Shown: positions 22,747 to 64,000, numbered from the stretch's first letter. The stretch is 64,000 nucleotides of DNA from an uncultured Clostridia bacterium (GCA_947303255.1 CAMYXL010000001.1:18231-82230), one strand, 5' to 3'. A program made the numbers and translations. The notes: generated by a model from the sequence alone, not told the origin.

Positions 22747-24261
22747 ATGAATTTTTTGAAGCCTGACAGTCCTGTCATGCGACTTATAAGTAAGATCGCG
22801 GACATTCTTGTTCTGAATATACTTACCATTATCTGCAGTATCCCGATAGTGACTATCGGTGCTGCCGTTACTGCTAATTTCAGCGTAGCCATGAAGGTAG
22901 TTAAGGATGAGGACAACGGCGTCTTTCTTCCTTATTTCAAGGCGTTTAAGAAGAACTTTAAGCCGGCAACGCTGGCTTGGATTGTTTTGGGTATGGCTAT
23001 ATTCCTCATAGTCATCGACTGGAGATGGATCATACAAAACGGTTGGGGAACAACACCGTTCGTGTACAGATTCCTCGTTGTGTTTATGAGTGCGTTTGTG
23101 TGGCTCATTACGCTTTCGATCTTTCCTCTTATCGCAAGATATGAGATGAAGATGATGGAATATTTCAAGGCTGCACTTATACTTTCCATAACTAGATTCA
23201 TTCCGCTTGCACTCGTTTCTTTGTTCATGCTCGGATCCGTTATTGCATGTATTTGGTATGCCAGATGGTTCCCGCTCCTTTATGCGTTCTGCACTCTTAC
23301 ATCCATGTACTTCCTCTGCCTTATCTATATAAAGGCATTTAATCGTCTTGAGATGAAGCAAAAGGAAGGCGAAGAGGGAGAAGAGAGCGAAGAAGAGAAT
23401 TCAGAAGAAACTGAAGAACCGGAAATCATCGAAGAAGCTGAAGAGGTCAAGGAAGAGGAGATACCTGAAACAGAGGGAGCTCCTGTACCGGTAAATGCTT
23501 CGATCATGGAAGAGGTATCTCATGCTCAGGCCGTAAAAGAACTTCATAAGGAAATGGAGATCGATACGGAAAGAGAGCCTGAAGAGGAGATAAAGGGAAA
23601 CAAGCTCACCAAGTTCATCAGAACGGAAAAGAAGAAACTTAAGGGGCTTACCACTAAGCAGAAGATCGGTTACTTCGTTCAGTACTATCTTCCTATAGTT
23701 ATCCTCCTTCTTGTTTTCATAGTCGGTGTATCATGGTTTGGCCACGACATATACGTTAACCATAAGATCATCCTTAAGGGCGGTATGATCAACTGTCAGG
23801 TTTCTGACGCCGGCCGAAAGTATGTGACTGACGGTTTTGTCGAGAGCCTTGGCTATACGACAAAGCAGAGGACAGCACTTTTGTCCGATACAAATCTGGA
23901 TTTCAAGTCTGATATCGAATTTGAGGAGCGTTATCTTGATATCTCGCTTCGTGCACAGATGGCTACAGGAACATTCTCCTATCTTCTCATTCGTGATGAT
24001 GCAATGTACAACTACACGAGAGATGACTATTTTACAGATCTTAATACTCTTATCGATATCAACGAGTATTTTGAAGAGGATGAGATATACTACGGAGCAG
24101 AGGATGTACCGGTAGGATTGAAGCTCAGGATCGATACAGTAAGAAAACTGGGCCTTTCCGAAGATCATGATTACTATGTTGTTTTCGGATACAATACGGG
24201 CGAGATGAAGACACAGAATGATTTCATCGGTTATCTGTTTGACCTTGATCCTGAAGCATAA
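22747..24261 (+). CDS. YesL (DUF624) membrane protein fused via an acidic linker to a second membrane-anchored domain
   Basis: N-terminal DSPVMRLISKIADILVLNILTIICSIPIVTIGAA (YesL), a Glu-rich linker at about aa 200-285, then KQKIGYFVQYYLP plus a TM helix and a soluble domain. Confidence 0.8.
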   Translation: MNFLKPDSPVMRLISKIADILVLNILTIICSIPIVTIGAAVTANFSVAMKVVKDEDNGVFLPYFKAFKKNFKPATLAWIVLGMAIFLIVIDWRWIIQNGWGTTPFVYRFLVVFMSAFVWLITLSIFPLIARYEMKMMEYFKAALILSITRFIPLALVSLFMLGSVIACIWYARWFPLLYAFCTLTSMYFLCLIYIKAFNRLEMKQKEGEEGEESEEENSEETEEPEIIEEAEEVKEEEIPETEGAPVPVNASIMEEVSHAQAVKELHKEMEIDTEREPEEEIKGNKLTKFIRTEKKKLKGLTTKQKIGYFVQYYLPIVILLLVFIVGVSWFGHDIYVNHKIILKGGMINCQVSDAGRKYVTDGFVESLGYTTKQRTALLSDTNLDFKSDIEFEERYLDISLRAQMATGTFSYLLIRDDAMYNYTRDDYFTDLNTLIDINEYFEEDEIYYGAEDVPVGLKLRIDTVRKLGLSEDHDYYVVFGYNTGEMKTQNDFIGYLFDLDPEA

Positions 24262-24303
24262 GAGATAAACAAACAACTAAAAGCGGCTAACAGCCTAAAT
24301 GAT

Positions 24304-24334
24304 AAAAACAGGTCTCACAGGGACCTGTTTTTTA
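24304..24334 (+). terminator. Intrinsic terminator of the xylan operon
   Basis: AAAAACAGGTCTC-aca-GGGACCTGTTTTT followed by TTATT. Confidence 0.8.
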
Positions 24335-24342
24335 TTGGGAAT

Positions 24343-24495
24343 AAATACAGTTGATTCTCCCTGTTGCCAGGGAGCAAACACAGGATTTAAGGCTAAAATC
24401 CAGTATTCAGTCCCTGTTCAATAGGGATATAGCACTGGAGAATGAGTCAAAATCTATTTGATGATCCCTGTAGTCAGGGAGTGTTTACTGTATTT
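24343..24495. repeat. Array of three 46-47-bp palindromic units
   Basis: Consensus AAATMCAGT-N6-TCCCTG-N4/5-CAGGGA-N6-ACTGKATTT; units at 24343-24388, 24396-24442 and 24450-24495, joined by 7-bp linkers. Confidence 0.75.
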
Positions 24496-24504
24496 TCAAA
24501 AGCA

Positions 24505-24545
24505 CAAAAAAGAGGTTGTCTCAACATTTAAGTGAGACAACCTCT
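24505..24545 (-). terminator. Intrinsic terminator of the decarboxylase operon
   Basis: AGAGGTTGTCTCA-N9-TGAGACAACCTCT preceded by an A run on the + strand, i.e. a T tail on the - strand. Confidence 0.85.
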
Positions 24546-24575
24546 GTTATGTTGTAATATACGTGACTTTAGTTA

Positions 24576-25772
24576 TTACTTACCGAAGAGGCTCAAGAGA
24601 ACGCCTGCGGCAACTGCAGAACCGATAACACCTGCTACGTTTGGACCCATAGCGTGCATCAGCAGGAAGTTGGAAGGATTAGCCTTCTGGCCTTCCTTAT
24701 TAGAAACACGTGCTGCCATTGGAACAGCGGATACACCGGCTGAACCGATGAGCGGGTTGATCTTTCCGCCTGAAACTGCATACATAACCTGACCGATGAG
24801 AAGACCACCGATTGTGGAGAATGCGAAAGCGATAAGACCCAAGATGATGATCTTGATAGTATCGAACTTAAGGAAGTTAGCACCCTGAGCTGTAGCACCA
24901 ACCGTAACACCCAAGAAGATAGTTACGATGTTACACAGAGCATTCTGTGCTGTATCGGAGAGACGCTCTGTTACGCCGGACTCACGGAAGAGGTTACCGA
25001 GCATGAGCATTCCGAGGAGAGGACCTACAGAAGGGAGAAGGAGAGTACAGATAACTGTAACGATGATAGGGAAGCAGATCTTCTCTACCTTTGATACGTT
25101 TCTGAGCTGTTCCATCTTAACTTCACGCTGCTTCTTTGTTGTAAGGAGCTTCATAAGCGGTGGCTGGATCATTGGGATCAAAGCCATGTATGAATAAGCT
25201 GCGATAGCGATAGCAGGAAGGATCTCAGGAGCAAGCTTTGTTGTAAGGAAGATAGCCGTAGGGCCGTCTGCACCACCGATGATAGCGATGGAAGCTGCCT
25301 GGTTAGCTGTAAAGCCAAGGAGAGAAGCTACAACGAAAGCAAATGAGATACCGAACTGAGCACCTGCACCCATGAAGAGTGAGGAAGGACGAGCGATCAA
25401 TGGTCCAAAGTCTGTCATGGCACCGACTGCCATAAAGATGAGACAAGGGAAGATAGAAAGCTTAACTCCAAGATAGATGAAGTCAAGAAGTCCGACGCTT
25501 ATAGCACTGTCCATGCCCGCTTCTTTACCTGTACCGAGGAGTTCCCAGTGGATGTGTCCGCCGGAGAATATCTCTGGGTGATAAAGATCAGCGAGAGGAA
25601 GATTGCTCAAGAGCATACCGAATGCGATCGGAAGCAAGAGCAATGGCTCGAACTTCTTTCCGACTGCCAAATAGATGAGCACGAAGGAAAGAACGAGCAT
25701 GATGGCATTACGGATGTCGATGTTAGCGAATCCGGATGACTGCCACAAGTTCATTAATGCATCAATAAACAC
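24576..25772 (-). CDS. oadB: Na+-translocating decarboxylase beta subunit
   Basis: FEPLLLLPIAFG, IFPCLIFMAVGAMTDFGPL, IIGGADGPT, AYSYMALIPMIQPP, GVSAVPMAAR, HAMGPNVAGVIGSA. Confidence 0.96.
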   Translation of the reverse strand: MFIDALMNLWQSSGFANIDIRNAIMLVLSFVLIYLAVGKKFEPLLLLPIAFGMLLSNLPLADLYHPEIFSGGHIHWELLGTGKEAGMDSAISVGLLDFIYLGVKLSIFPCLIFMAVGAMTDFGPLIARPSSLFMGAGAQFGISFAFVVASLLGFTANQAASIAIIGGADGPTAIFLTTKLAPEILPAIAIAAYSYMALIPMIQPPLMKLLTTKKQREVKMEQLRNVSKVEKICFPIIVTVICTLLLPSVGPLLGMLMLGNLFRESGVTERLSDTAQNALCNIVTIFLGVTVGATAQGANFLKFDTIKIIILGLIAFAFSTIGGLLIGQVMYAVSGGKINPLIGSAGVSAVPMAARVSNKEGQKANPSNFLLMHAMGPNVAGVIGSAVAAGVLLSLFGK

Positions 25773-25787: not shown

Positions 25788-26183
25788 TCAAGAAATACTT
25801 AAGAGGACGTCGCCTGTGTTTACGGAAGCACCCTTGGATGTGAGAACCTGAGCTACTGTACCGGAACATGGTGCGTAGATCTCGTTCTCCATTTTCATAG
25901 CTTCGAGGATGCAAACGAGGTCGCCTTCGTTTACTTTAGCGCCGACTGCAACCTTAACGTTAAGGATAGTGCCCGGCATTGGTGCTGTAACAGGAGTTGT
26001 ACCTGCCTGAGCTGTAGCAGCAGGAGCTGCAGCTGGAGCAGCGGCTGCAGGTGCGGCAGCAACAGGAGCTGCGGCAACAGGAGCAGGAGCTGCCGTAACG
26101 GTTGTGGTCTTAAGAAGATTAGCTTTGCCCTTCTCTACCTCAACCTCATATTCTTTATCGTTGATTGTAACTTTATAGATCAT
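25788..26183 (-). CDS. Biotin carboxyl carrier subunit of the decarboxylase
   Basis: Ala/Pro linker, VTAPMPG, biotinylation motif EAMKM. Confidence 0.93.
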
Positions 26184-58424: not shown

Positions 58425-59315
58425 ATGACAAACATCAAGATTCATCAGTGCCCGTCCTGCGGCGGCAATCTCACCGTAGACAACGACAGACAAATGTATC
58501 ATTGCTCTTTCTGCGGCAGCTCTTTCGATTATGAGTATTTTCGAGAAGAACAGGCTCATGAGATGGGCGAGAAATACTTAAGCAGAGGCGAGTATGCCGC
58601 AGCTATCGATCTTTATAAGTTCGTATTGGATAAGAATCCGCATGATTTTATTTCTCTCAGGGGTCTGATGCTCGCGTCGGCACGCCTGAAGGAGATGAAG
58701 GAACTGACCTCCAAAGTCGGCACTGAAGGTTTCTCATATGACACAAAGCAGGTTGATTTCATCTGCGGCAGTGCTTCTCCGGATGACAAAGAATATTTTG
58801 ACGGTATGTCAAAGATTTATTCCGATATTAAGTCCGTCTCGGCCCTGGTCGAAGAGCAGAATGTTCTTCGTAAGGAAAAGAGGAGGATCGAGGACAAGAT
58901 CCATCTCGAGCTCAAGAGCCGTGAAGAGTGCAGTGTCAAAGACAGATACGGAACCGGACATGATCCGATAAAGGCTTTTATAGCGATGACCGCTATCTGC
59001 GGATTTTTCCTTCTGGTAATCCTCGTCCTGGTGATAGTAGGACTTTTTACGGAAGATTGGGTAGTCGGAATCGGTTTTATGCTCCTTCTTCTGGCGGTCC
59101 CGTTGACAATCATCGATTTTTTGATAGTATTCCCGCGCTTCAAGAAGGCAAGGGAGATCGATGCCAGGATCGGTAAATACGGCATCGAGTCCGGCAAGCG
59201 TCAGAGAAGGATCAACGAGCTGGGCGAGCTGATCGACAAGGAGTCTTCAGCCATCAAGCATGCGTGCTCCGACCTTATGAAGAAGGACACAAAGATCATG
59301 AATGAACTCAAATAA
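58425..59315 (+). CDS. Hypothetical protein: Zn-ribbon, helical/coiled-coil region and two TM segments
   Basis: CPSCGG...CSFCG at the N-terminus, a TPR-like helix pair, a coiled coil and two hydrophobic segments. ATG at 58425 after GGAG. Confidence 0.65.
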   Translation: MTNIKIHQCPSCGGNLTVDNDRQMYHCSFCGSSFDYEYFREEQAHEMGEKYLSRGEYAAAIDLYKFVLDKNPHDFISLRGLMLASARLKEMKELTSKVGTEGFSYDTKQVDFICGSASPDDKEYFDGMSKIYSDIKSVSALVEEQNVLRKEKRRIEDKIHLELKSREECSVKDRYGTGHDPIKAFIAMTAICGFFLLVILVLVIVGLFTEDWVVGIGFMLLLLAVPLTIIDFLIVFPRFKKAREIDARIGKYGIESGKRQRRINELGELIDKESSAIKHACSDLMKKDTKIMNELK

Positions 59316-59320
59316 TATAA

Positions 59321-59345
59321 GTGACTGTCTCATTGAGGCAGTCAC
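59321..59345. terminator. Hairpin after the hypothetical gene
   Basis: GTGACTGTCTC-att-GAGGCAGTCAC. Confidence 0.6.
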
Positions 59346-59360
59346 TAAATATTTGTAGGA

Positions 59361-59592
59361 ATACTAACCTGATCGGTCTTTTTTGTAAATAAGGTTAGTA
59401 TAAATCGGTCTTACAAATAATCGAGTACTAACCCTTTTTTCGAAAACATGCATGATGGTAAGTGTTTTTCTACATGATCGAAAATAAAATACTAACCTAA
59501 AACGCGATAATTGCCATATTGATTAGTACGACTTCAGATTTCCGGCGAAATATACTAACCTTTTGGCAGATTTTCACGATTTTGATCAGTAC
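59361..59592. repeat. Phased array of four 63-64-bp units, each TACTAACC-N23-GGTTAGTA
   Basis: Forward cores at 59362, 59426, 59490 and 59553; reverse cores at 59393, 59457, 59521 and 59584 (the last three degenerate). Confidence 0.75.
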
Positions 59593-59659
59593 TCAACAGG
59601 ATGAATCTGAGGGAATCGTGTCTTTTTTGAGACAACCCTCAGTTTTTTTCGAAAATAAA

Positions 59660-59733
59660 AGTCAAAAAAAGTCAAAAAGCTATTGACAAACACTGAAAAC
59701 GGGACGATAATACTAATATCAAAGAAAGTCAAA
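59660..59733 (+). promoter_or_regulatory. CtsR-repressed sigma-A promoter
   Basis: CtsR box AGTCAAA-AAA-AGTCAAA (59660-59676); -35 TTGACA (59683); -10 GATAAT (59706, 17-bp spacer); second box TATCAAA-GAA-AGTCAAA (59717-59733), with further GTCAAA copies downstream. Confidence 0.88.
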
Positions 59734-59781
59734 GTCAAAATCAAAGTCGAATTTGACCAAAGCAGGAAGGGAGGAACAGAT

Positions 59782-60252
59782 GTGGCTAGACTCGTTGATG
59801 TTATAGAGTTAATGATCAAAGAGATGCTGGACGAGAACAACGGCAAGGCGACCATAAGCAGAAGCGATCTCGCTGAGAGAGCGAACTGCGTGCCTTCGCA
59901 GATAACCTACGTGTTGTCCACCAGATTCTCGTCAGGTAACGGATATATAGTCGAGAGCCGAAGAGGCGGCGGCGGACAGATCACCATCAGGCGAGCGAAG
60001 ATCATCAGCAAGGGAGAGTACCTGCAGTCGGTGCTTAACGCGGTAGGCAATGATCTTACTCAGCAGCAGGCGAAGATCTATCTGACCAATCTCGTATCGA
60101 GCGGTGCGATCTCACCTCATGAGGCGACAGTCGTTATGGCGACGGTGTCGGACAGAGCTCTGGTCCATGTTGATTCCGATATAAGGTCTGTGGTAAGAGC
60201 CGATATTTTCAAGAATGCTTTGGTAAGTCTGATGTTAGACGGTGCGAGCTGA
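59782..60252 (+). CDS. ctsR: Class III stress gene repressor CtsR
   Basis: MARLVDVIE, LAERANCVPSQITYVLSTRF, GYIVESRRGGGG. GTG start after GGGAGG. Confidence 0.95.
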   Translation: MARLVDVIELMIKEMLDENNGKATISRSDLAERANCVPSQITYVLSTRFSSGNGYIVESRRGGGGQITIRRAKIISKGEYLQSVLNAVGNDLTQQQAKIYLTNLVSSGAISPHEATVVMATVSDRALVHVDSDIRSVVRADIFKNALVSLMLDGAS

Positions 60253-60268
60253 AAGGAAGTGATACATA

Positions 60269-60898
60269 ATGCGTTGTGAAAGATGCGGAAAGATAGTAGA
60301 TAAATCATATACAAATTATAACGGCAGGTTTTTCTGTCCGGAATGTGCCAAGGAGTTGGGACTTCCTGATGCGGCTACTCTTGCCAGCAGTGCATTCAGG
60401 TTCCTGGATGACGGACTTACGTCATTCTTCCCTCTCATGAGAGAGCAGTTGGAGTTCTCCCCTACGAGAAGCCAGATCAAATGCCCTAAGTGCGGTACGA
60501 CTCTGAAGGAGTTCGAAGCAACGGGCAATCTCGGATGCATTGAGTGCTACAACACTTTTAATGAATCCGTTATGAGACTTCTCATGAGACTTCAGGCAGA
60601 CAACCACTATAGAGGAAGGTCTCCGGGTATCGCATCCGAACCTATGGAAGACAGCAAAGAGACCAAGGAGATCGATGCAGCAGAGATCGGTTCCAATTCC
60701 GAGAGCAAGGAGCCTGAGGTTTCTCCTGCCAAGGAGATCGCGGCTGACGAGAATAAGCTCCTCAAGTATTCCAATGCAGATATCGGAATGCTCACTAACG
60801 AGGACTTAAACGAAGCCATCAAACTAGCTGTAGCTCATGAAGATTACCTTCTTGCAGCAAAATTCAGAGATGAACTCAGAAGCAGGGAGGGCGTGTAA
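60269..60898 (+). CDS. mcsA: McsA (CxxC motifs plus UVR domain)
   Basis: CERC, CPEC, CPKC, GNLGCIECY; UVR-like LNEAIKLAVAHEDYLLAAKFRDELR. Confidence 0.9.
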   Translation: MRCERCGKIVDKSYTNYNGRFFCPECAKELGLPDAATLASSAFRFLDDGLTSFFPLMREQLEFSPTRSQIKCPKCGTTLKEFEATGNLGCIECYNTFNESVMRLLMRLQADNHYRGRSPGIASEPMEDSKETKEIDAAEIGSNSESKEPEVSPAKEIAADENKLLKYSNADIGMLTNEDLNEAIKLAVAHEDYLLAAKFRDELRSREGV

Positions 60899-61876
60899 AT
60901 GAAGTGGTACGAAGAAAACGGTGAGAACAGTGATGTTATCCTTACATCAAGAGTCGTTGTGAGGCGTAACATAAAAGGATATTCCTTCCCTTCGAAAATG
61001 GATGACAGCGAGCGCGAGACCGTACAGCATCTCGTTACTGCAAAGGCAGAGGAGCTCGGTTACGAAGTAAAGATCGAGGAGCCTGCTTCGAATATTCCTG
61101 ATGCGCTCAAAAAGCGCGGCAGTGACGCCATGTTCCAGAGCAGTGACGAAGCGATCGGTGCCATGATCAACAAGATCAACCACCTGACCTTCTACGGAAA
61201 CATCAGAGGCTCCAATGTCAAAGAGATGTTCACGAGAGTCGAGAAGATGGTCATCGATTTCGAGAGAGCATTCGATATGGCTTATTCCGAGAGATTGGGC
61301 TTCCTTACGGCAGAACCTCAGAACGTAGGTTCCGGAATCACGGTGGATATCGTTGTAGCTATTCCGGGAATCGTTAAGTCGGGAACTTTCCCTTCACTTC
61401 AGAAGAAGCTTACGGTTGCCGAGTGGAGACTTAAGCCTTACATCAATCAGAACAGCGGCATCAAAAGACCTGAGACTTTGTTCTCTCTTACCAATGTCGC
61501 TACTCTCGGCATCGGTGAAGACAAGCTCTACGAGCGCGCCATCACGATAATCAACGACATCATCAAAGTCGAGCGTATGTGCCGTGAGGCTATCTATAAG
61601 AAGAACAGACTGGTCGTCGAAGATCAGTACTACAGAGGATACGGACTTTTGAAGTTCTGCAGGAAGATCGAACTTCCTGAGGCACTCGAAGTACTCGGCT
61701 GGATCAGATTCGGCTTAGGTCTTATCGATGACAAGGAAACGGGGATCACACTCTCCGTCATTAATGAGATAACAGAAAAACTATGTAAAGAATACGACCT
61801 GCATCCGCGCAGCTTCAACAGACACAATGAGCAGCGTGCAGCGTATATCAAGGAAATACTGGAAAGGGGTGAATGA
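60899..61876 (+). CDS. mcsB: McsB homolog with a degenerate arginine-kinase active site
   Basis: Position in the ctsR operon; [44 protein letters not shown]. The NEED and CPTN motifs are absent. Confidence 0.85.
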
Positions 61877-64000
61877 TCATGAAATTTGGAGAAGGTGCCA
61901 TTCAATTGATATCTGATTCCTGGCTTTTCGCCAAGGCATTCAAATGTGAGACGATCGGAAGCGAATTCCTGCTTCTTGCCATGTGCAATCTCAATTGCCC
62001 TGCCAAGAATATTCTTGAAGTTCAGGGTATTACCGATGAGAAGGTAATCGAGTGTATCGAAAGAAACGAGAGAACAACAATGCAAAAGCCGAGCGACGAA
62101 GAGATCGCCAGCATCGACTTTGAAGAAGGTCTTCACGCTTGCCGTGTTGATACAAAGCGAGTACTTGCAGAGGCCGATATCGTTGCCAACAGATTCGGTG
62201 ACGGAATCGTTACTCCTGAGCATATCTTAAGTGTCCTTGCCTCGAAAAGGAGTTTTACAGCTGCCAAGATCATGATCTACCTCAATGCAGATCTTGAGGC
62301 CATCAGACAGCAGACACTCGCTGCTATCATGGGTTCAGGAGACGACGACTTTATGGACGGCGGTTCCTCTGAAGAATCTCCGCGTCAGTCTGCAGCAGCA
62401 AATCTGGCCAGAATGGGCTCGAAAAAGAGCGCAAAGGGCAAGCATCCTACATTGGACAAGTTTGGTAAGAATCTTACTCAGCTTGCCAAGGACGGCAAGA
62501 TCGATCCGGTTATCGGAAGAGAAGAAGAGATCAACCGTGTAATGCAGATCCTCGCCAGAAGAACAAAGAACAATCCTTGTCTCGTTGGTGAGCCTGGTGT
62601 AGGTAAGACAGCTATCGCTGAAGGCCTTGCACTTAAGATCGCTGAAGGAGACGTACCTGATATCCTTAAGGGTAAGACTGTATTCAATATCGAAGTAGGC
62701 TCAATGGTTGCAGGTTCCAAGTTCAGAGGTGACTTTGAAGAGAGGATCCAGAAGGTCCTTGATGAAGCATCCTCCAACGAAGACATCATCCTCTTTATCG
62801 ATGAGATCCATACTCTCGTAGGAGCAGGTGACGGCGGCAACGGTTCCCTTGATGCAGCAAACATCATGAAGCCGATGCTCACAAAGGGCGAGCTTCAGAT
62901 CATCGGTGCTACGACACTTGATGAATACAGCAAGATCATCGAGAAAGATTCAGCTCTCGAGAGAAGATTCCAGAAAGTTCTTATCGAAGAACCTTCACAG
63001 GCAGATGCCATCCTTATCCTTAAGGGACTTCGCCCGCGTTACGAAGAGCATCACAAGATCAAGATCAGTGATGAGGCTATCGAACAGGCAGTTCTCCTGT
63101 CGACCAGATATCTGTCCGACAGATTCCTTCCTGATAAAGCCATCGACCTTATCGATGAGGCAGCAGCGAAAAAGAGGATCAACTTCCAGGTATCCACGGA
63201 ACTTAATACCCTCACCAGCAGACTTACTGAAGTAGGTAACCTCAAGAAGGTCGCTGCTGAGAAGATGGAGTTTGAGAAAGCTCAGGAACTTCACGTTCAG
63301 GAGCAGGAGATCGAGAAGAGGATCGAGGAACTTAAAAATACCAACAAGCCGGATAACGACGGCTTTACAGGTGAGCTCACCGTAGAAGATATCGCAGAAG
63401 TCCTTGCCAAGTGGTCAGGTATCCCTGTATCTAAGATCACGGAGTCTGATGCAGAGAAGCTTAAGACATTGGAGGATGAGCTTAAGTCAAGAGTTATCGG
63501 TCAGGATGAGGCAGTAAGTGCCATTGCACGTGCCATCAGAAGAAGCCGTCTGGGTCTTAAGGATCCTAAGCGTCCTTCCGGATCGTTCATCTTCCTCGGT
63601 ACTACCGGTGTAGGTAAGACTGAGCTTGCAAGAGCACTCGCAGAGGTAATGTTCGGTAATGAGAATGCACTTGTCAGGATCGATATGTCCGAGTACATGG
63701 AAAAGCACGATGTAAGTAAACTCATCGGATCGCCTCCGGGCTATGTCGGATACGATGAGGGAGGTCAGCTTACAGAGAAGATAAGAAGACATCCTTATTC
63801 GGTAGTCCTTTTCGATGAGATAGAGAAGGCGCATCCTGATATCTTTAACAGCATGCTCCAGATCCTGGATGACGGAAGACTTACTGACGGTAAGGGCCGG
63901 CTCGTAGATTTTAAGAATACTATTATAATAATGACTTCTAATATAGGTGCGCGTATGCTCACTGCAGAAGCGAGCCGCAAGATCGGATTCGAGCTCGAGG
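61873..64000 (+). CDS. clpC: ClpC AAA+ unfoldase (partial; runs off the window end)
   Basis: Not in the ORF track (no stop in window). Translated in frame from ATG 61873 (alternative start 61879): two Clp N repeats, [27 protein letters not shown] (62587), [26 protein letters not shown], second Walker [45 protein letters not shown]. Confidence 0.96.

What the first reader, a model, noticed from the sequence alone, without database searches (positions are those of the whole stretch)
24343..24495. Triple palindromic array between two convergent terminators, with attC-like box-spacer-box geometry
Seen: three units with a 53-54-bp period: aaatacagt-tgattc-TCCCTG-ttgc-CAGGGA-gcaaac-acaggattt; aaatccagt-attcag-TCCCTG-ttcaa-TAGGGA-tatagc-actggagaa; aaatctatt-tgatga-TCCCTG-tagt-CAGGGA-gtgttt-actgtattt. 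Every N6 spacer and both 7-bp linkers differ in sequence but not in length. Folded as a single strand, each unit gives an outer stem, a 6x6 bubble and an inner stem, reminiscent of integron attC or HUH-recognised REP hairpins; the whole element can also fold as one long rod. It lies outside both flanking transcripts. Inference: recombination or protein-binding sites, a non-autonomous mobile element, or an independently transcribed structured RNA. I do not recognise it as a named family.
Basis: partly seen in the sequence, partly recalled or inferred. Interest (0 to 1): 0.7.

Follow-up and report, generated by a model that had tools for sequence, protein, structure and literature searches.

The report
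Dispersed tandem palindrome repeat family
The three palindromes are real and belong to an unnamed, low-copy family of tandem palindromic DNA repeats in the gene-free gaps of a few closely related uncultured rumen Clostridia; they look like protein-recognition sites of a REP/BOX-type dispersed repeat, not an RNA gene.

Summary
Window 24343-24495 holds three 46-47-bp dyad units at a 53/54-bp period, between two convergent terminators.

It is not single-copy. A pattern scan of 185,579 species genomes found the same unit in 1-4-unit arrays at six distinct intergenic sites. All six lie in three closely related rumen MAGs (92-96% identical at shared loci).

Each unit is two inverted bipartite half-sites, AAATMCAGT-N6-TCCCTRT. 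Spacers, loops and linkers are fixed in length (±1) but carry no sequence information.

RNA structure is not supported:
- no Rfam hit;
- no compensatory changes, and spacers complementary only at chance level;
- folding energy equals a null that keeps the boxes and shuffles the rest, and the predicted folds differ between arrays;
- no promoter-like site, and no metatranscriptome contig over the array.

Sister lineages lack the arrays at two orthologous loci, so arrays are gained or lost quickly.

Best reading: a new REP/BIME/BOX-like dispersed DNA repeat whose boxes are recognition sites for an unidentified protein. Whether that protein reads duplex DNA or an extruded hairpin is unresolved. 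Defining features of REP, attC, MITE and CRISPR were tested and not met. Interest is moderate.

The parts
24343..24388 (.). Unit 1. Box A 24343-24351 (AAATACAGT), spacer 24352-24357, box B 24358-24363 (TCCCTG), loop 24364-24367, box B' 24368-24373 (CAGGGA), spacer 24374-24379, box A' 24380-24388 (ACAGGATTT).
   Evidence: nhmmer 37.5 bits. Position 24382 reads A in the window; T, the family consensus, in runs X1 and X6; and C in runs X8, X16 and X25.
24389..24395 (.). Linker 1 (AAGGCTA, 7 bp), not conserved.
24396..24442 (.). Unit 2. Box A 24396-24404, spacer 24405-24410, box B 24411-24416, 5-nt loop 24417-24421, box B' 24422-24427 (TAGGGA), spacer 24428-24433, box A' 24434-24442 (ACTGGAGAA, with a decayed 3' end).
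   Evidence: It is the only unit whose own predicted fold shows outer stem, 6x6 bubble and inner stem.
24443..24449 (.). Linker 2 (TGAGTCA, 7 bp), not conserved.
24450..24495 (.). Unit 3. Box A 24450-24458 (AAATCTATT, decayed), spacer 24459-24464, box B 24465-24470, loop 24471-24474, box B' 24475-24480, spacer 24481-24486, box A' 24487-24495 (ACTGTATTT).
24304..24332 (+). Intrinsic terminator of the upstream + strand gene (AAAAACAGGTC-tcacagg-GACCTGTTTTT), bidirectional in form. It is context, not part of the repeat. It lies within the roughly 237-bp stretch of this intergenic gap that has no counterpart in the sister lineage L031.
   Evidence: (I7).
24504..24552 (-). Intrinsic terminator of the - strand oxaloacetate/methylmalonyl-CoA decarboxylase operon. 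Context only. It corresponds to the single terminator of the sister lineage L031.
   Evidence: (I2).
22747..24261 (+). Upstream gene, a 504-aa DUF624/YesL-family protein. It ends a glycoside-hydrolase and transporter cluster. Context only.
24576..25772 (-). Convergent gene, the Na+-translocating decarboxylase beta subunit (OAD_beta). Context only.

Best explanation
The element is one three-unit array of an undescribed, low-copy, lineage-restricted family of non-coding tandem palindromic DNA repeats. The family lives in the gene-free gaps (terminator-to-terminator or terminator-to-promoter) of a narrow clade of uncultured rumen Clostridia.

Shown:
- The working module is a 22-bp bipartite half-site, AAATMCAGT-N6-TCCCTRT.
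- Two half-sites face each other across 2-3 bp to make a 46-48-bp dyad unit.
- Units follow each other after 6-8-bp linkers, giving a 52-54-bp period (about five DNA helical turns). Arrays hold 1-4 units.
- The boxes are conserved as sequences, each half-site on its own. Everything between them is fixed in length but free in sequence.

Inferred:
- The boxes are recognition sites for a sequence-specific protein with two DNA-reading surfaces per subunit.
- That protein binds either to duplex DNA or to the hairpin the unit can extrude.
- The family spreads or turns over as a REP/BIME- or BOX-like dispersed, probably non-autonomous, element.
- It is not an RNA gene.
- The protein was not identified.
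For: Multi-copy and clade-restricted:
- A full-unit pattern scanned over 596 Gb of species genomes gave 13 loci, against roughly 1 expected by chance (my own estimate).
- Eight of the loci lie in three rumen MAGs (RUI342, RGIG9768, RUG14894). They form arrays of 1, 3, 3, 3, 3, 4, 4 and 4 units with periods of 52-54 bp.
- Those genomes are 92-96% identical at shared loci. The eight loci reduce to six distinct genomic sites.

Boxes versus spacers:
- In 33 half-sites the box positions carry 1-2 bits each. Spacer positions carry 0.02-0.5 bit.
- Spacer similarity between units is at chance (P=0.13).

Half-sites behave independently:
- The R/Y positions and the M/K positions do not covary (9/18 and 6/18 cells unpaired).
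- Overall 79.3% of cells pair, against 77.7% after shuffling partners (62 of 500 shuffles as high).

Turnover:
- A relative whose DUF624 protein is 87% identical has only a 79-bp gap with one terminator at the window's locus.
- Relatives whose UPF0371 protein is 96% identical lack the L006 array.
- The window itself lacks the L002 array upstream of its orthologous ctsR operon.

Context: all arrays lie in intergenic gaps beside housekeeping genes. Four of the six sites lie 5-25 bp from a terminator's T-run.

Not RNA.
Against: - No candidate binding protein or transposase was found. None lies within 3-4 kb of any array.
- There are no target-site duplications or distinct terminal modules.
- Copy number is low: at least 4 arrays in one MAG, and one per 64 kb here. 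That is far below classic REP families.
- Units share no spacer similarity, which is unusual for recently transposed copies.
- Between orthologous arrays and between strains, substitutions are not depleted in boxes. About 5 of 6 L006/L013 differences and 3 of 7 strain variants fall in boxes. Present-day purifying selection on individual boxes is therefore not demonstrated, though the numbers are small.
- Loop length varies (4 or 5 nt) while box-to-box spacers are almost always 6 nt. That fits a hairpin at least as well as a rigid duplex site.
Confidence: 0.55

Rival explanations
1. Folded single-strand recombination or cleavage site. Each unit extrudes as a hairpin (9-bp outer stem, unpaired 6x6 centre, 5-6-bp inner stem, 4-5-nt loop). 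That hairpin is the substrate of a tyrosine recombinase (attC/IntI- or CTX/XerCD-like) or of a Y1 HUH transposase (REP/RAYT-like), which copies or moves the units.
For: The geometry is that of a recombinase core site with an unpaired centre. Loop length varies between 4 and 5 nt and linkers between 6 and 8 nt, while the spacers are 6 nt in 33 of 36 cases. That is what a hairpin tolerates. Arrays are gained and lost between close relatives. Folded attC sites are defined by unpaired features rather than by sequence (PMC5027507).
Against: No compensatory change keeps A/A' or B/B' paired. Units 1 and 3 of the window do not form the outer stem. The units are symmetric, whereas attC needs asymmetry (extrahelical bases) to choose a strand. 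There are no R-box/GTTRRRY motifs, no cassettes, no GTAG/CGTC tag, and no integrase or Y1 transposase next to any array.
Confidence: 0.15
2. Host chromosomal binding-site arrays. A cellular DNA-binding protein (nucleoid-organising, topological or regulatory) binds cooperatively to dyads phased every five helical turns. The arrays serve the host rather than themselves.
For: Box conservation with free spacers and a constant 52-54-bp period. Half-sites are conserved independently, as expected for duplex recognition. REP/BIME elements are known to be binding sites for several host proteins (PMC2817692).
Against: Array positions are not conserved beyond about 92% nucleotide identity. The neighbours are unrelated housekeeping genes, so no regulon logic appears. 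In the window the array sits between two terminators, away from any promoter.
Confidence: 0.15
3. Structured RNA: an sRNA or 3'-UTR hairpin array. Examples would be a stabiliser against exonucleases, or a protein sponge presenting one A-G-GGA (ANGGA, CsrA-like) motif per unit.
For: The + strand folds better than the - strand (-63 against -53 kcal/mol). In L003 and L004 the array starts 4-11 nt after a stop codon, so it should be co-transcribed there. Every unit carries AGGGA.
Against: No Rfam family matches. There is no covariation. Spacer pairing is at chance. Energy equals the box-preserving null and the folds differ between arrays. G-T and A-C mismatches are mixed within the same array, so no strand is favoured. 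No promoter-like site lies near the array. The window array lies outside both transcripts. Metatranscriptome contigs cover neighbouring genes at 2-5x but not the arrays; this last point is weak because depth is low.
Confidence: 0.08
4. Accessory bidirectional terminator or insulator. Each unit has the form A-tract, stem, stem, T-tract (AAAT-CCAGT...ACTGG-ATTT[T]) and may add termination capacity between neighbouring transcription units.
For: Arrays always lie between transcription units. L003 has no other recognisable terminator between the upstream gene and the next promoter. One unit core scored as terminator-like.
Against: The G+C-rich inner stem is 15 nt away from the T-run. The window, L001, L004 and L006 arrays sit next to strong canonical terminators, so they would be redundant. 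A terminator role does not explain sequence-specific conservation of both boxes.
Confidence: 0.05
5. Functionless decaying tandem duplication, or chance.
For: Recent substitutions are not visibly depleted in boxes.
Against: Eighteen non-redundant units at six sites keep the same four boxes while all intervening positions are randomised. The pattern is absent from 64 kb of surrounding sequence. Neutral decay would hit boxes and spacers alike.
Confidence: 0.02

Closest known systems
REP / BIME elements (repetitive extragenic palindromes, clustered as bacterial interspersed mosaic elements) with their RAYT transposases
   Same: Small non-coding palindromes in intergenic gaps, often after terminators or between convergent genes. 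They are regularly spaced in clusters, lineage-specific, and act as binding sites for proteins (PMC2817692, PMC3733652, PMC3116915).
   Different: REPs are 20-40 bp, usually more than 100 copies per genome, carry a GTAG or CGTC tag at one end, and alternate in orientation. They are conserved along their whole length and travel with a RAYT gene flanked by REPs. Here the units are 46-48 bp self-dyads with bipartite boxes and free spacers. Only a handful of arrays exist per genome, there is no tag, and no RAYT lies next to any array.
Pneumococcal and streptococcal BOX elements (boxA-(boxB)n-boxC)
   Same: Found in Firmicutes. They are intergenic and modular, with a variable number of tandem internal modules. 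They are predicted to fold as stem-loops, and no transposase of their own is known (PMC3049150).
   Different: BOX elements have distinct terminal modules (boxA, boxC) and boxB copies that are similar along their whole length. They number over a hundred per genome and are transcribed. Here there are no terminal modules, the spacers are randomised, and no transcript was seen.
Integron attC sites
   Same: The R''-spacer-L''...L'-spacer-R' layout folds into outer stem, unpaired central spacer, inner stem and variable loop. Length is conserved and sequence is free between the boxes (PMC5027507).
   Different: attC sites are asymmetric (extrahelical bases). They carry RYYYAAC/GTTRRRY boxes, and each follows a gene cassette next to an intI gene. 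Their paired positions are kept by structure, not by sequence. None of this holds here.
res-type accessory sites of serine resolvases (three dimer-binding subsites in about 120 bp)
   Same: Three dyad subsites within about 150 bp, each made of two inverted half-sites. This comparison rests on my own knowledge, not on a tool result.
   Different: res subsites differ in spacing, sit next to the resolvase gene, and are single-copy per element. Here all units are alike, arrays have 1-4 units, and they lie at unrelated chromosomal sites.
CRISPR arrays
   Same: Regularly spaced palindromic repeats with variable intervening sequence of constant length.
   Different: The variable segments here are only 4-8 nt. 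Four boxes alternate with four variable segments in each 53 bp. No cas genes or leader were seen near any array.

Membership tests
Any Rfam RNA family (6S, REP-like, sRNAs, etc.) | Match to a covariance model at or above its gathering score | tested here: not met
   There were 0 matches in the 64-kb window. The best hits at E<=10 around the array are unrelated and far below threshold. Five other array loci give only a TPP riboswitch elsewhere in L001.
Structured RNA (generic) | Compensatory base changes, or pairing beyond what the column composition gives | tested here: not met
   79.3% of cells pair against 77.7% after shuffling (62 of 500 shuffles as high), with no excess of double changes. 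Spacer complementarity is 27/90 against 29.4 expected. Folding energy z is -1.1 to +0.05 against a box-preserving null.
REP / BIME | 20-40-bp palindrome carrying a GTAG or CGTC tetranucleotide at one end | tested here: not met
   Units are 46-48 bp and begin AAAT and end ATTT. No GTAG/CGTC tag is present in the 18 aligned units. Definition from PMC3733652.
REP / BIME | High copy number (typically more than 100 per genome) | tested here: inconclusive
   The strict pattern finds 4 arrays in MAG RUI342 and 2 each in two others, and one array in the 64-kb window. Whole genomes could not be scanned with a relaxed model. Further copies exist in rumen metagenome contigs.
REP / BIME | Associated RAYT (Y1 HUH transposase) gene flanked by the repeats | tested here: inconclusive
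   No long ORF unaccounted for by the housekeeping or membrane genes lies within 3-4 kb of the arrays at L001-L004 and L006. Those ORFs were identified by eye from the first 40 residues; no family scan was run on them. The seven genes around the window array were scanned with Pfam and none is a transposase or recombinase. The rest of the genomes could not be searched.
Integron attC | R''/R' boxes RYYYAAC...GTTRRRY, extrahelical bases giving asymmetry, and a position at the 3' end of gene cassettes near intI | tested here: not met
   The boxes are AAATMCAGT and TCCCTR. The units are symmetric dyads in direct tandem without ORFs between them, and no integrase is nearby.
MITE | Terminal inverted repeats plus target-site duplication, with copies similar along their whole length | tested here: not met
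   There are no flanking direct repeats at the six sites. The variable segments of different copies are no more alike than chance.
BOX elements | boxA and boxC terminal modules around tandem boxB modules | tested here: not met
   Arrays begin and end with ordinary half-units. The flanks share nothing. Definition from PMC3049150.
CRISPR | Repeats of about 23-47 bp separated by spacers of about 21-72 bp, usually with cas genes | tested here: not met
   The variable segments are 4-8 nt. No ORF resembling a cas gene was noted in the flanks; those ORFs were read by eye and not scanned against protein families. The size ranges are from my own knowledge.
Phage, plasmid or virus sequence | Similar DNA in phage, plasmid or viral collections | tested here: not met
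   No match in IMG/VR, PLSDB or INPHARED.

The most novel reading that the evidence does not exclude
The arrays may represent an undescribed class of modular intergenic element: lattices of short recognition boxes held at fixed distances by free-sequence spacers, built or maintained by an unknown enzyme. One candidate is a recombinase or HUH enzyme acting on extruded hairpins whose unpaired 6x6 centre mimics a crossover region. Two unrelated box sets occur in the same clade, and different sets occupy the same terminator-to-promoter gap in sister genomes: the TCCCT family in L002, and an RTACTAACC-N23-GGTTAGTAY family with a 64-bp period at window 59358-59610.
Probability: 0.12. Interest if true: 0.75.

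Novelty: new variant of a known kind. Interest (0 to 1): 0.42.

Why it matters
Small dispersed repeats such as REP, BIME and BOX shape genome stability, transcript ends and supercoiling, and they are handles for strain typing. Almost all described families come from cultured Proteobacteria and streptococci.

This one comes from uncultured rumen Clostridia and has an unusual grammar: four conserved boxes at fixed distances with free sequence in between. That grammar points to a specific, still unknown DNA-recognising protein. Finding that protein would add a new sequence- or structure-specific DNA-binding or recombination module.

On the practical side:
- Several arrays lie at or close to the ends of MAG contigs, which would fit assembly breaks at the repeats.
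- They could be mistaken for sRNA genes because of their very low folding energy.

Tried and rejected
- **Rfam.** Searched at gathering score and at E<=10. Nothing relevant.
- **JGI metagenome contigs.** A half-unit pattern gave 17 loci. All are chance half-matches without the second arm.
- **Viral, plasmid and phage collections.** No match.
- **Literature search for the box sequences.** Only unrelated primer hits.
- **Tandem Repeats Finder.** It does not see the array, because the units are too dissimilar outside the boxes.
- **Covariation for three pairing schemes** (within a unit, across a linker, and first-with-last as in a rod). Checked by hand on the M/K position and formally for the within-unit hairpin. 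No scheme is supported.
- **Spacer homology between units at different loci.** An apparent excess under a composition null disappears under a column-preserving null (P=0.13). I therefore dropped the idea that whole arrays are collinear copies of each other.
- **The 'long rod'.** Rejected as a conserved structure.
- **Independent transcript.** One 199-nt contig of run X25 covers 24334-24511 only. That run is of unknown type and covers the neighbouring gene at similar depth, so it is not evidence of an sRNA.
- **Other tandem arrays in relatives.** A generic lag-autocorrelation scan for 40-70-bp periods found none in the relatives' loci.
- **Caenibius hits.** L007, L010 and L011 are a different repeat that happens to share TCCCTG-N5-CAGGGA.

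Full report
**1. What is in the window.** It holds three units of 46, 47 and 46 bp, starting at 24343, 24396 and 24450, joined by 7-bp linkers.
- Each unit reads box A (AAATNNNNT), 6 nt, TCCCTG, 4 or 5 nt, YAGGGA, 6 nt, box A' (ACNGNANNN).
- The core pattern TCCCTG-N3-7-YAGGGA occurs only here in 64 kb. Chance expectation is 0.04, and 0 of 100 shuffles reach the observed count.
- The array lies between two convergent intrinsic terminators. One is at 24304-24332, after a 504-aa DUF624/YesL gene ending at 24261. The other is at 24504-24552, after the OAD_beta gene of a Na+-decarboxylase operon ending at 24576.
- Tandem Repeats Finder misses the array because the units share little outside the boxes.

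**2. It is a family, not a singleton.** I scanned one genome for each of 185,579 species with a full-unit pattern (AAAT-N4-T-N6-TCCCTG-N4-5-YAGGGA-N6-AC-N-G-N-A). The scan returned 13 loci, where I expected about one by chance.
- Eight loci lie in three rumen MAGs: Clostridia bacterium RUI342, Clostridiales bacterium RGIG9768 (yak omasum) and Ruminococcaceae bacterium RUG14894.
- L009 is the window's own locus in RUI342 (96.5% identical).
- The others are arrays of 1 unit (L001), 3 units (L002, L004, L008) and 4 units (L003, L006, L013), with periods of 52-54 bp.
- L004/L008 and L006/L013 are orthologous pairs, with flanks 96% and 92-93% identical. That leaves six distinct sites and 18 non-redundant units.
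- The remaining five loci are chance matches or, in a Caenibius MAG, a different repeat.
- Nothing was found in JGI metagenome contigs (17 chance half-matches), IMG/VR, plasmids or phages.
- A profile built from the units finds no second copy in the window or in the flanks of the other loci.
- Rumen metagenome runs that hold the window's strain also hold contigs with further, unfetched family members. These show up as loose ends such as ...CCAGTTTATTCTCTCTGCTGATAGGGAGCA....

**3. Anatomy.** I folded left and right halves together, giving 33 half-sites. The logo is AAATMCAGT-N5-V-TCCCTRT.
- Box positions carry 1.0-2.1 bits each. The six spacer positions carry 0.02-0.5 bit.
- Spacers are 6 nt in 33 of 36 cases and 7 nt in the other three. 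Loops between TCCCTR and YAGGGA are 4 nt, or 5 nt in three of the units. Linkers are 6-8 nt.
- A unit is therefore a dyad of two bipartite half-sites, and an array is a lattice with a period of about five helical turns.

**4. RNA or DNA?** Several independent tests speak against a structured RNA.
- No Rfam family matches.
- On the 18-unit alignment, the hairpin pairs form in 79.3% of cells against 77.7% after shuffling partners (62 of 500 shuffles as high). The two variable paired positions (M/K in box A, R/Y at the loop edge) are unpaired in 9/18 and 6/18 units. They vary independently.
- The 6-nt spacers of a unit are complementary at 27 of 90 positions, against 29.4 expected. They are neither paired nor kept apart.
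- The impressive folding energy (-63 kcal/mol, z -6) is entirely due to the boxes. I kept the boxes in place and shuffled only the variable nucleotides. The five multi-unit arrays then fold no better than the null (z -1.1 to +0.05), and their predicted topologies differ: a rod in the window, other shapes elsewhere.
- Only unit 2 of the window folds alone into outer stem, bubble and inner stem.
- G-T and A-C mismatches are mixed within arrays, so neither strand is favoured.
- No sigma-70-like promoter lies near the array.
- In four rumen metatranscriptomes, contigs cover the adjacent decarboxylase operon at about 2-5x, but none covers the array. The same holds at the L008 locus. This is weak evidence because depth is low and contigs drop rare molecules.

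**5. Evolutionary behaviour.** Synteny around the window's locus (DUF624 gene facing OAD_beta) is kept in relatives, but the array is not.
- The closest relative found (DUF624 protein 87% identical, L031) has a 79-bp gap with one bidirectional terminator, corresponding to the window's right-hand terminator. About 237 bp of the window's gap, holding the array and the left terminator, has no counterpart there.
- More distant relatives have another gene in the gap and no array.
- At the L006 site, relatives whose UPF0371 protein is 96% identical (L039-L044) have a 372-bp gap without any unit.
- The L002 array sits upstream of the ctsR-mcsA-mcsB-clpC operon. The window contains the orthologous operon (59643-63998, 92.5% identical) but not that array.
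- Within the species, seven metagenomes all show three units at the window's locus and only single-base variants. At position 24382 (A in the window) runs X1 and X6 read T, the consensus ACTGGATTT, and runs X8, X16 and X25 read C.
- Between orthologous arrays and between strains, substitutions are not visibly depleted in boxes. The numbers are too small to decide.

**6. Interpretation.** Three things together are the signature of protein recognition sites rather than base-paired RNA: sequence-conserved boxes, independent half-sites, and free spacers of fixed length.
- Dispersal to unrelated intergenic gaps, a narrow host range and rapid gain or loss are the behaviour of REP/BIME- or BOX-type repeats (PMC2817692, PMC3116915, PMC3049150).
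- I therefore read the element as one array of a new dispersed DNA repeat family whose boxes are bound by an unidentified protein with a bipartite reading head (confidence 0.55).
- Whether the protein reads duplex DNA or an extruded hairpin stays open. The 4/5-nt loop variation against near-constant 6-nt spacers leans towards a hairpin. The lack of compensatory change leans towards duplex DNA.
- The attC and REP-RAYT analogy is kept as a rival mechanism (0.15), not as membership. The defining features of attC, REP, MITE, BOX and CRISPR were tested and not met.

**7. Limits.** Copy number per genome is a lower bound. The RNA evidence is negative but shallow.

**8. A second array type seen in passing.** The window's own ctsR-upstream gap (59358-59610) holds four units with a 64/64/63-bp period. 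Each is RTACTAACC-N23-GRTNAGTAY, that is, 9-nt inverted boxes around a free 23-nt spacer. RTACTAACC occurs 6 times in the window against 0.44 expected. The same gap in L002 holds the TCCCT family instead. One low-depth metagenome contig lacks 244 bp of this second array, between two copies of GTCTTTTTTG. This suggests the 'boxes at fixed distances' grammar is a more general habit of these genomes, and it is the basis of the novel case.

Noticed in passing
window 59358-59610: A second, unrelated tandem array in the gap between a terminator (59320-59346) and the ctsR promoter. It has four units with a period of 64/64/63 bp. Each unit is RTACTAACC-N23-GRTNAGTAY, that is, 9-nt inverted boxes around a free-sequence spacer of fixed length. 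RTACTAACC occurs 6 times in the window against 0.44 expected.
   Followed up: partly
window 59376-59385 and 59620-59629; run X2: One low-depth metagenome contig joins 59375 to 59620. It lacks 244 bp of the second array, between two copies of the 10-bp direct repeat GTCTTTTTTG. This is either a microhomology deletion or an empty site.
   Followed up: no
L002 82-233 versus window 59290-59642: The same intergenic gap upstream of the orthologous ctsR-mcsA-mcsB-clpC operon (92.5% identical) holds the TCCCT-family array in L002 and the RTACTAACC array in the window. The two gaps are not alignable.
   Followed up: partly
window 59657-59748: Direct repeats of AAAGTCAAA upstream of a 189-aa gene and the mcsA/mcsB/clpC-like genes. 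They look like CtsR operator heptad repeats. The CtsR operator consensus is from my own knowledge.
   Followed up: no
L009 and L002 (both MAG RUI342) versus the window: Two contigs of the same MAG differ in their identity to the window: 96.5% for L009 and 92.5% for L002. The bin may mix two related strains, or divergence may be uneven along the genome.
   Followed up: no
window 24150-24640; run X2: A 526-nt contig from a roughly 83%-identical relative joins 24261 directly to 24576. It lacks the whole 314-bp gap with both terminators and the array. This is consistent with array-free sister lineages such as L031, but could be an assembly artefact.
   Followed up: partly
window 24334-24511; run X25: A 199-nt contig of a run of unknown type covers just the array and nothing of either terminator. 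Depth is similar to that of the neighbouring gene, so it is probably patchy DNA coverage rather than a transcript.
   Followed up: partly
L006 5040-5150: Two NrdR-box-like palindromes (ACACAATATATAGT and CCTATATCTAGTGT) and an extended -10 element for the nrdG-nrdD operon lie directly beside the four-unit array. The NrdR consensus is from my own knowledge.
   Followed up: no
L001 5781-5885: A TPP riboswitch (RF00059, 66 bits) lies upstream of a 208-aa gene. It is unrelated to the repeat.
   Followed up: no
L007 3223-3269, L010 929-975, L011 2476-2522 (Caenibius sp. MAG): A different repeated element in an alphaproteobacterial MAG, TAATTCGGT-N6-TCCCTG-N5-CAGGGA-ATCTAC-AGGGAATTT. It shares only the TCCCTG/CAGGGA core with the rumen family.
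   Followed up: no
window 26009-26093: An imperfect GCAGCAGCTGGAGC-type tandem repeat inside the 131-aa biotin-carrier gene (25788-26183). It probably encodes the Ala/Pro-rich linker. Relatives show the same periodicity.
   Followed up: no
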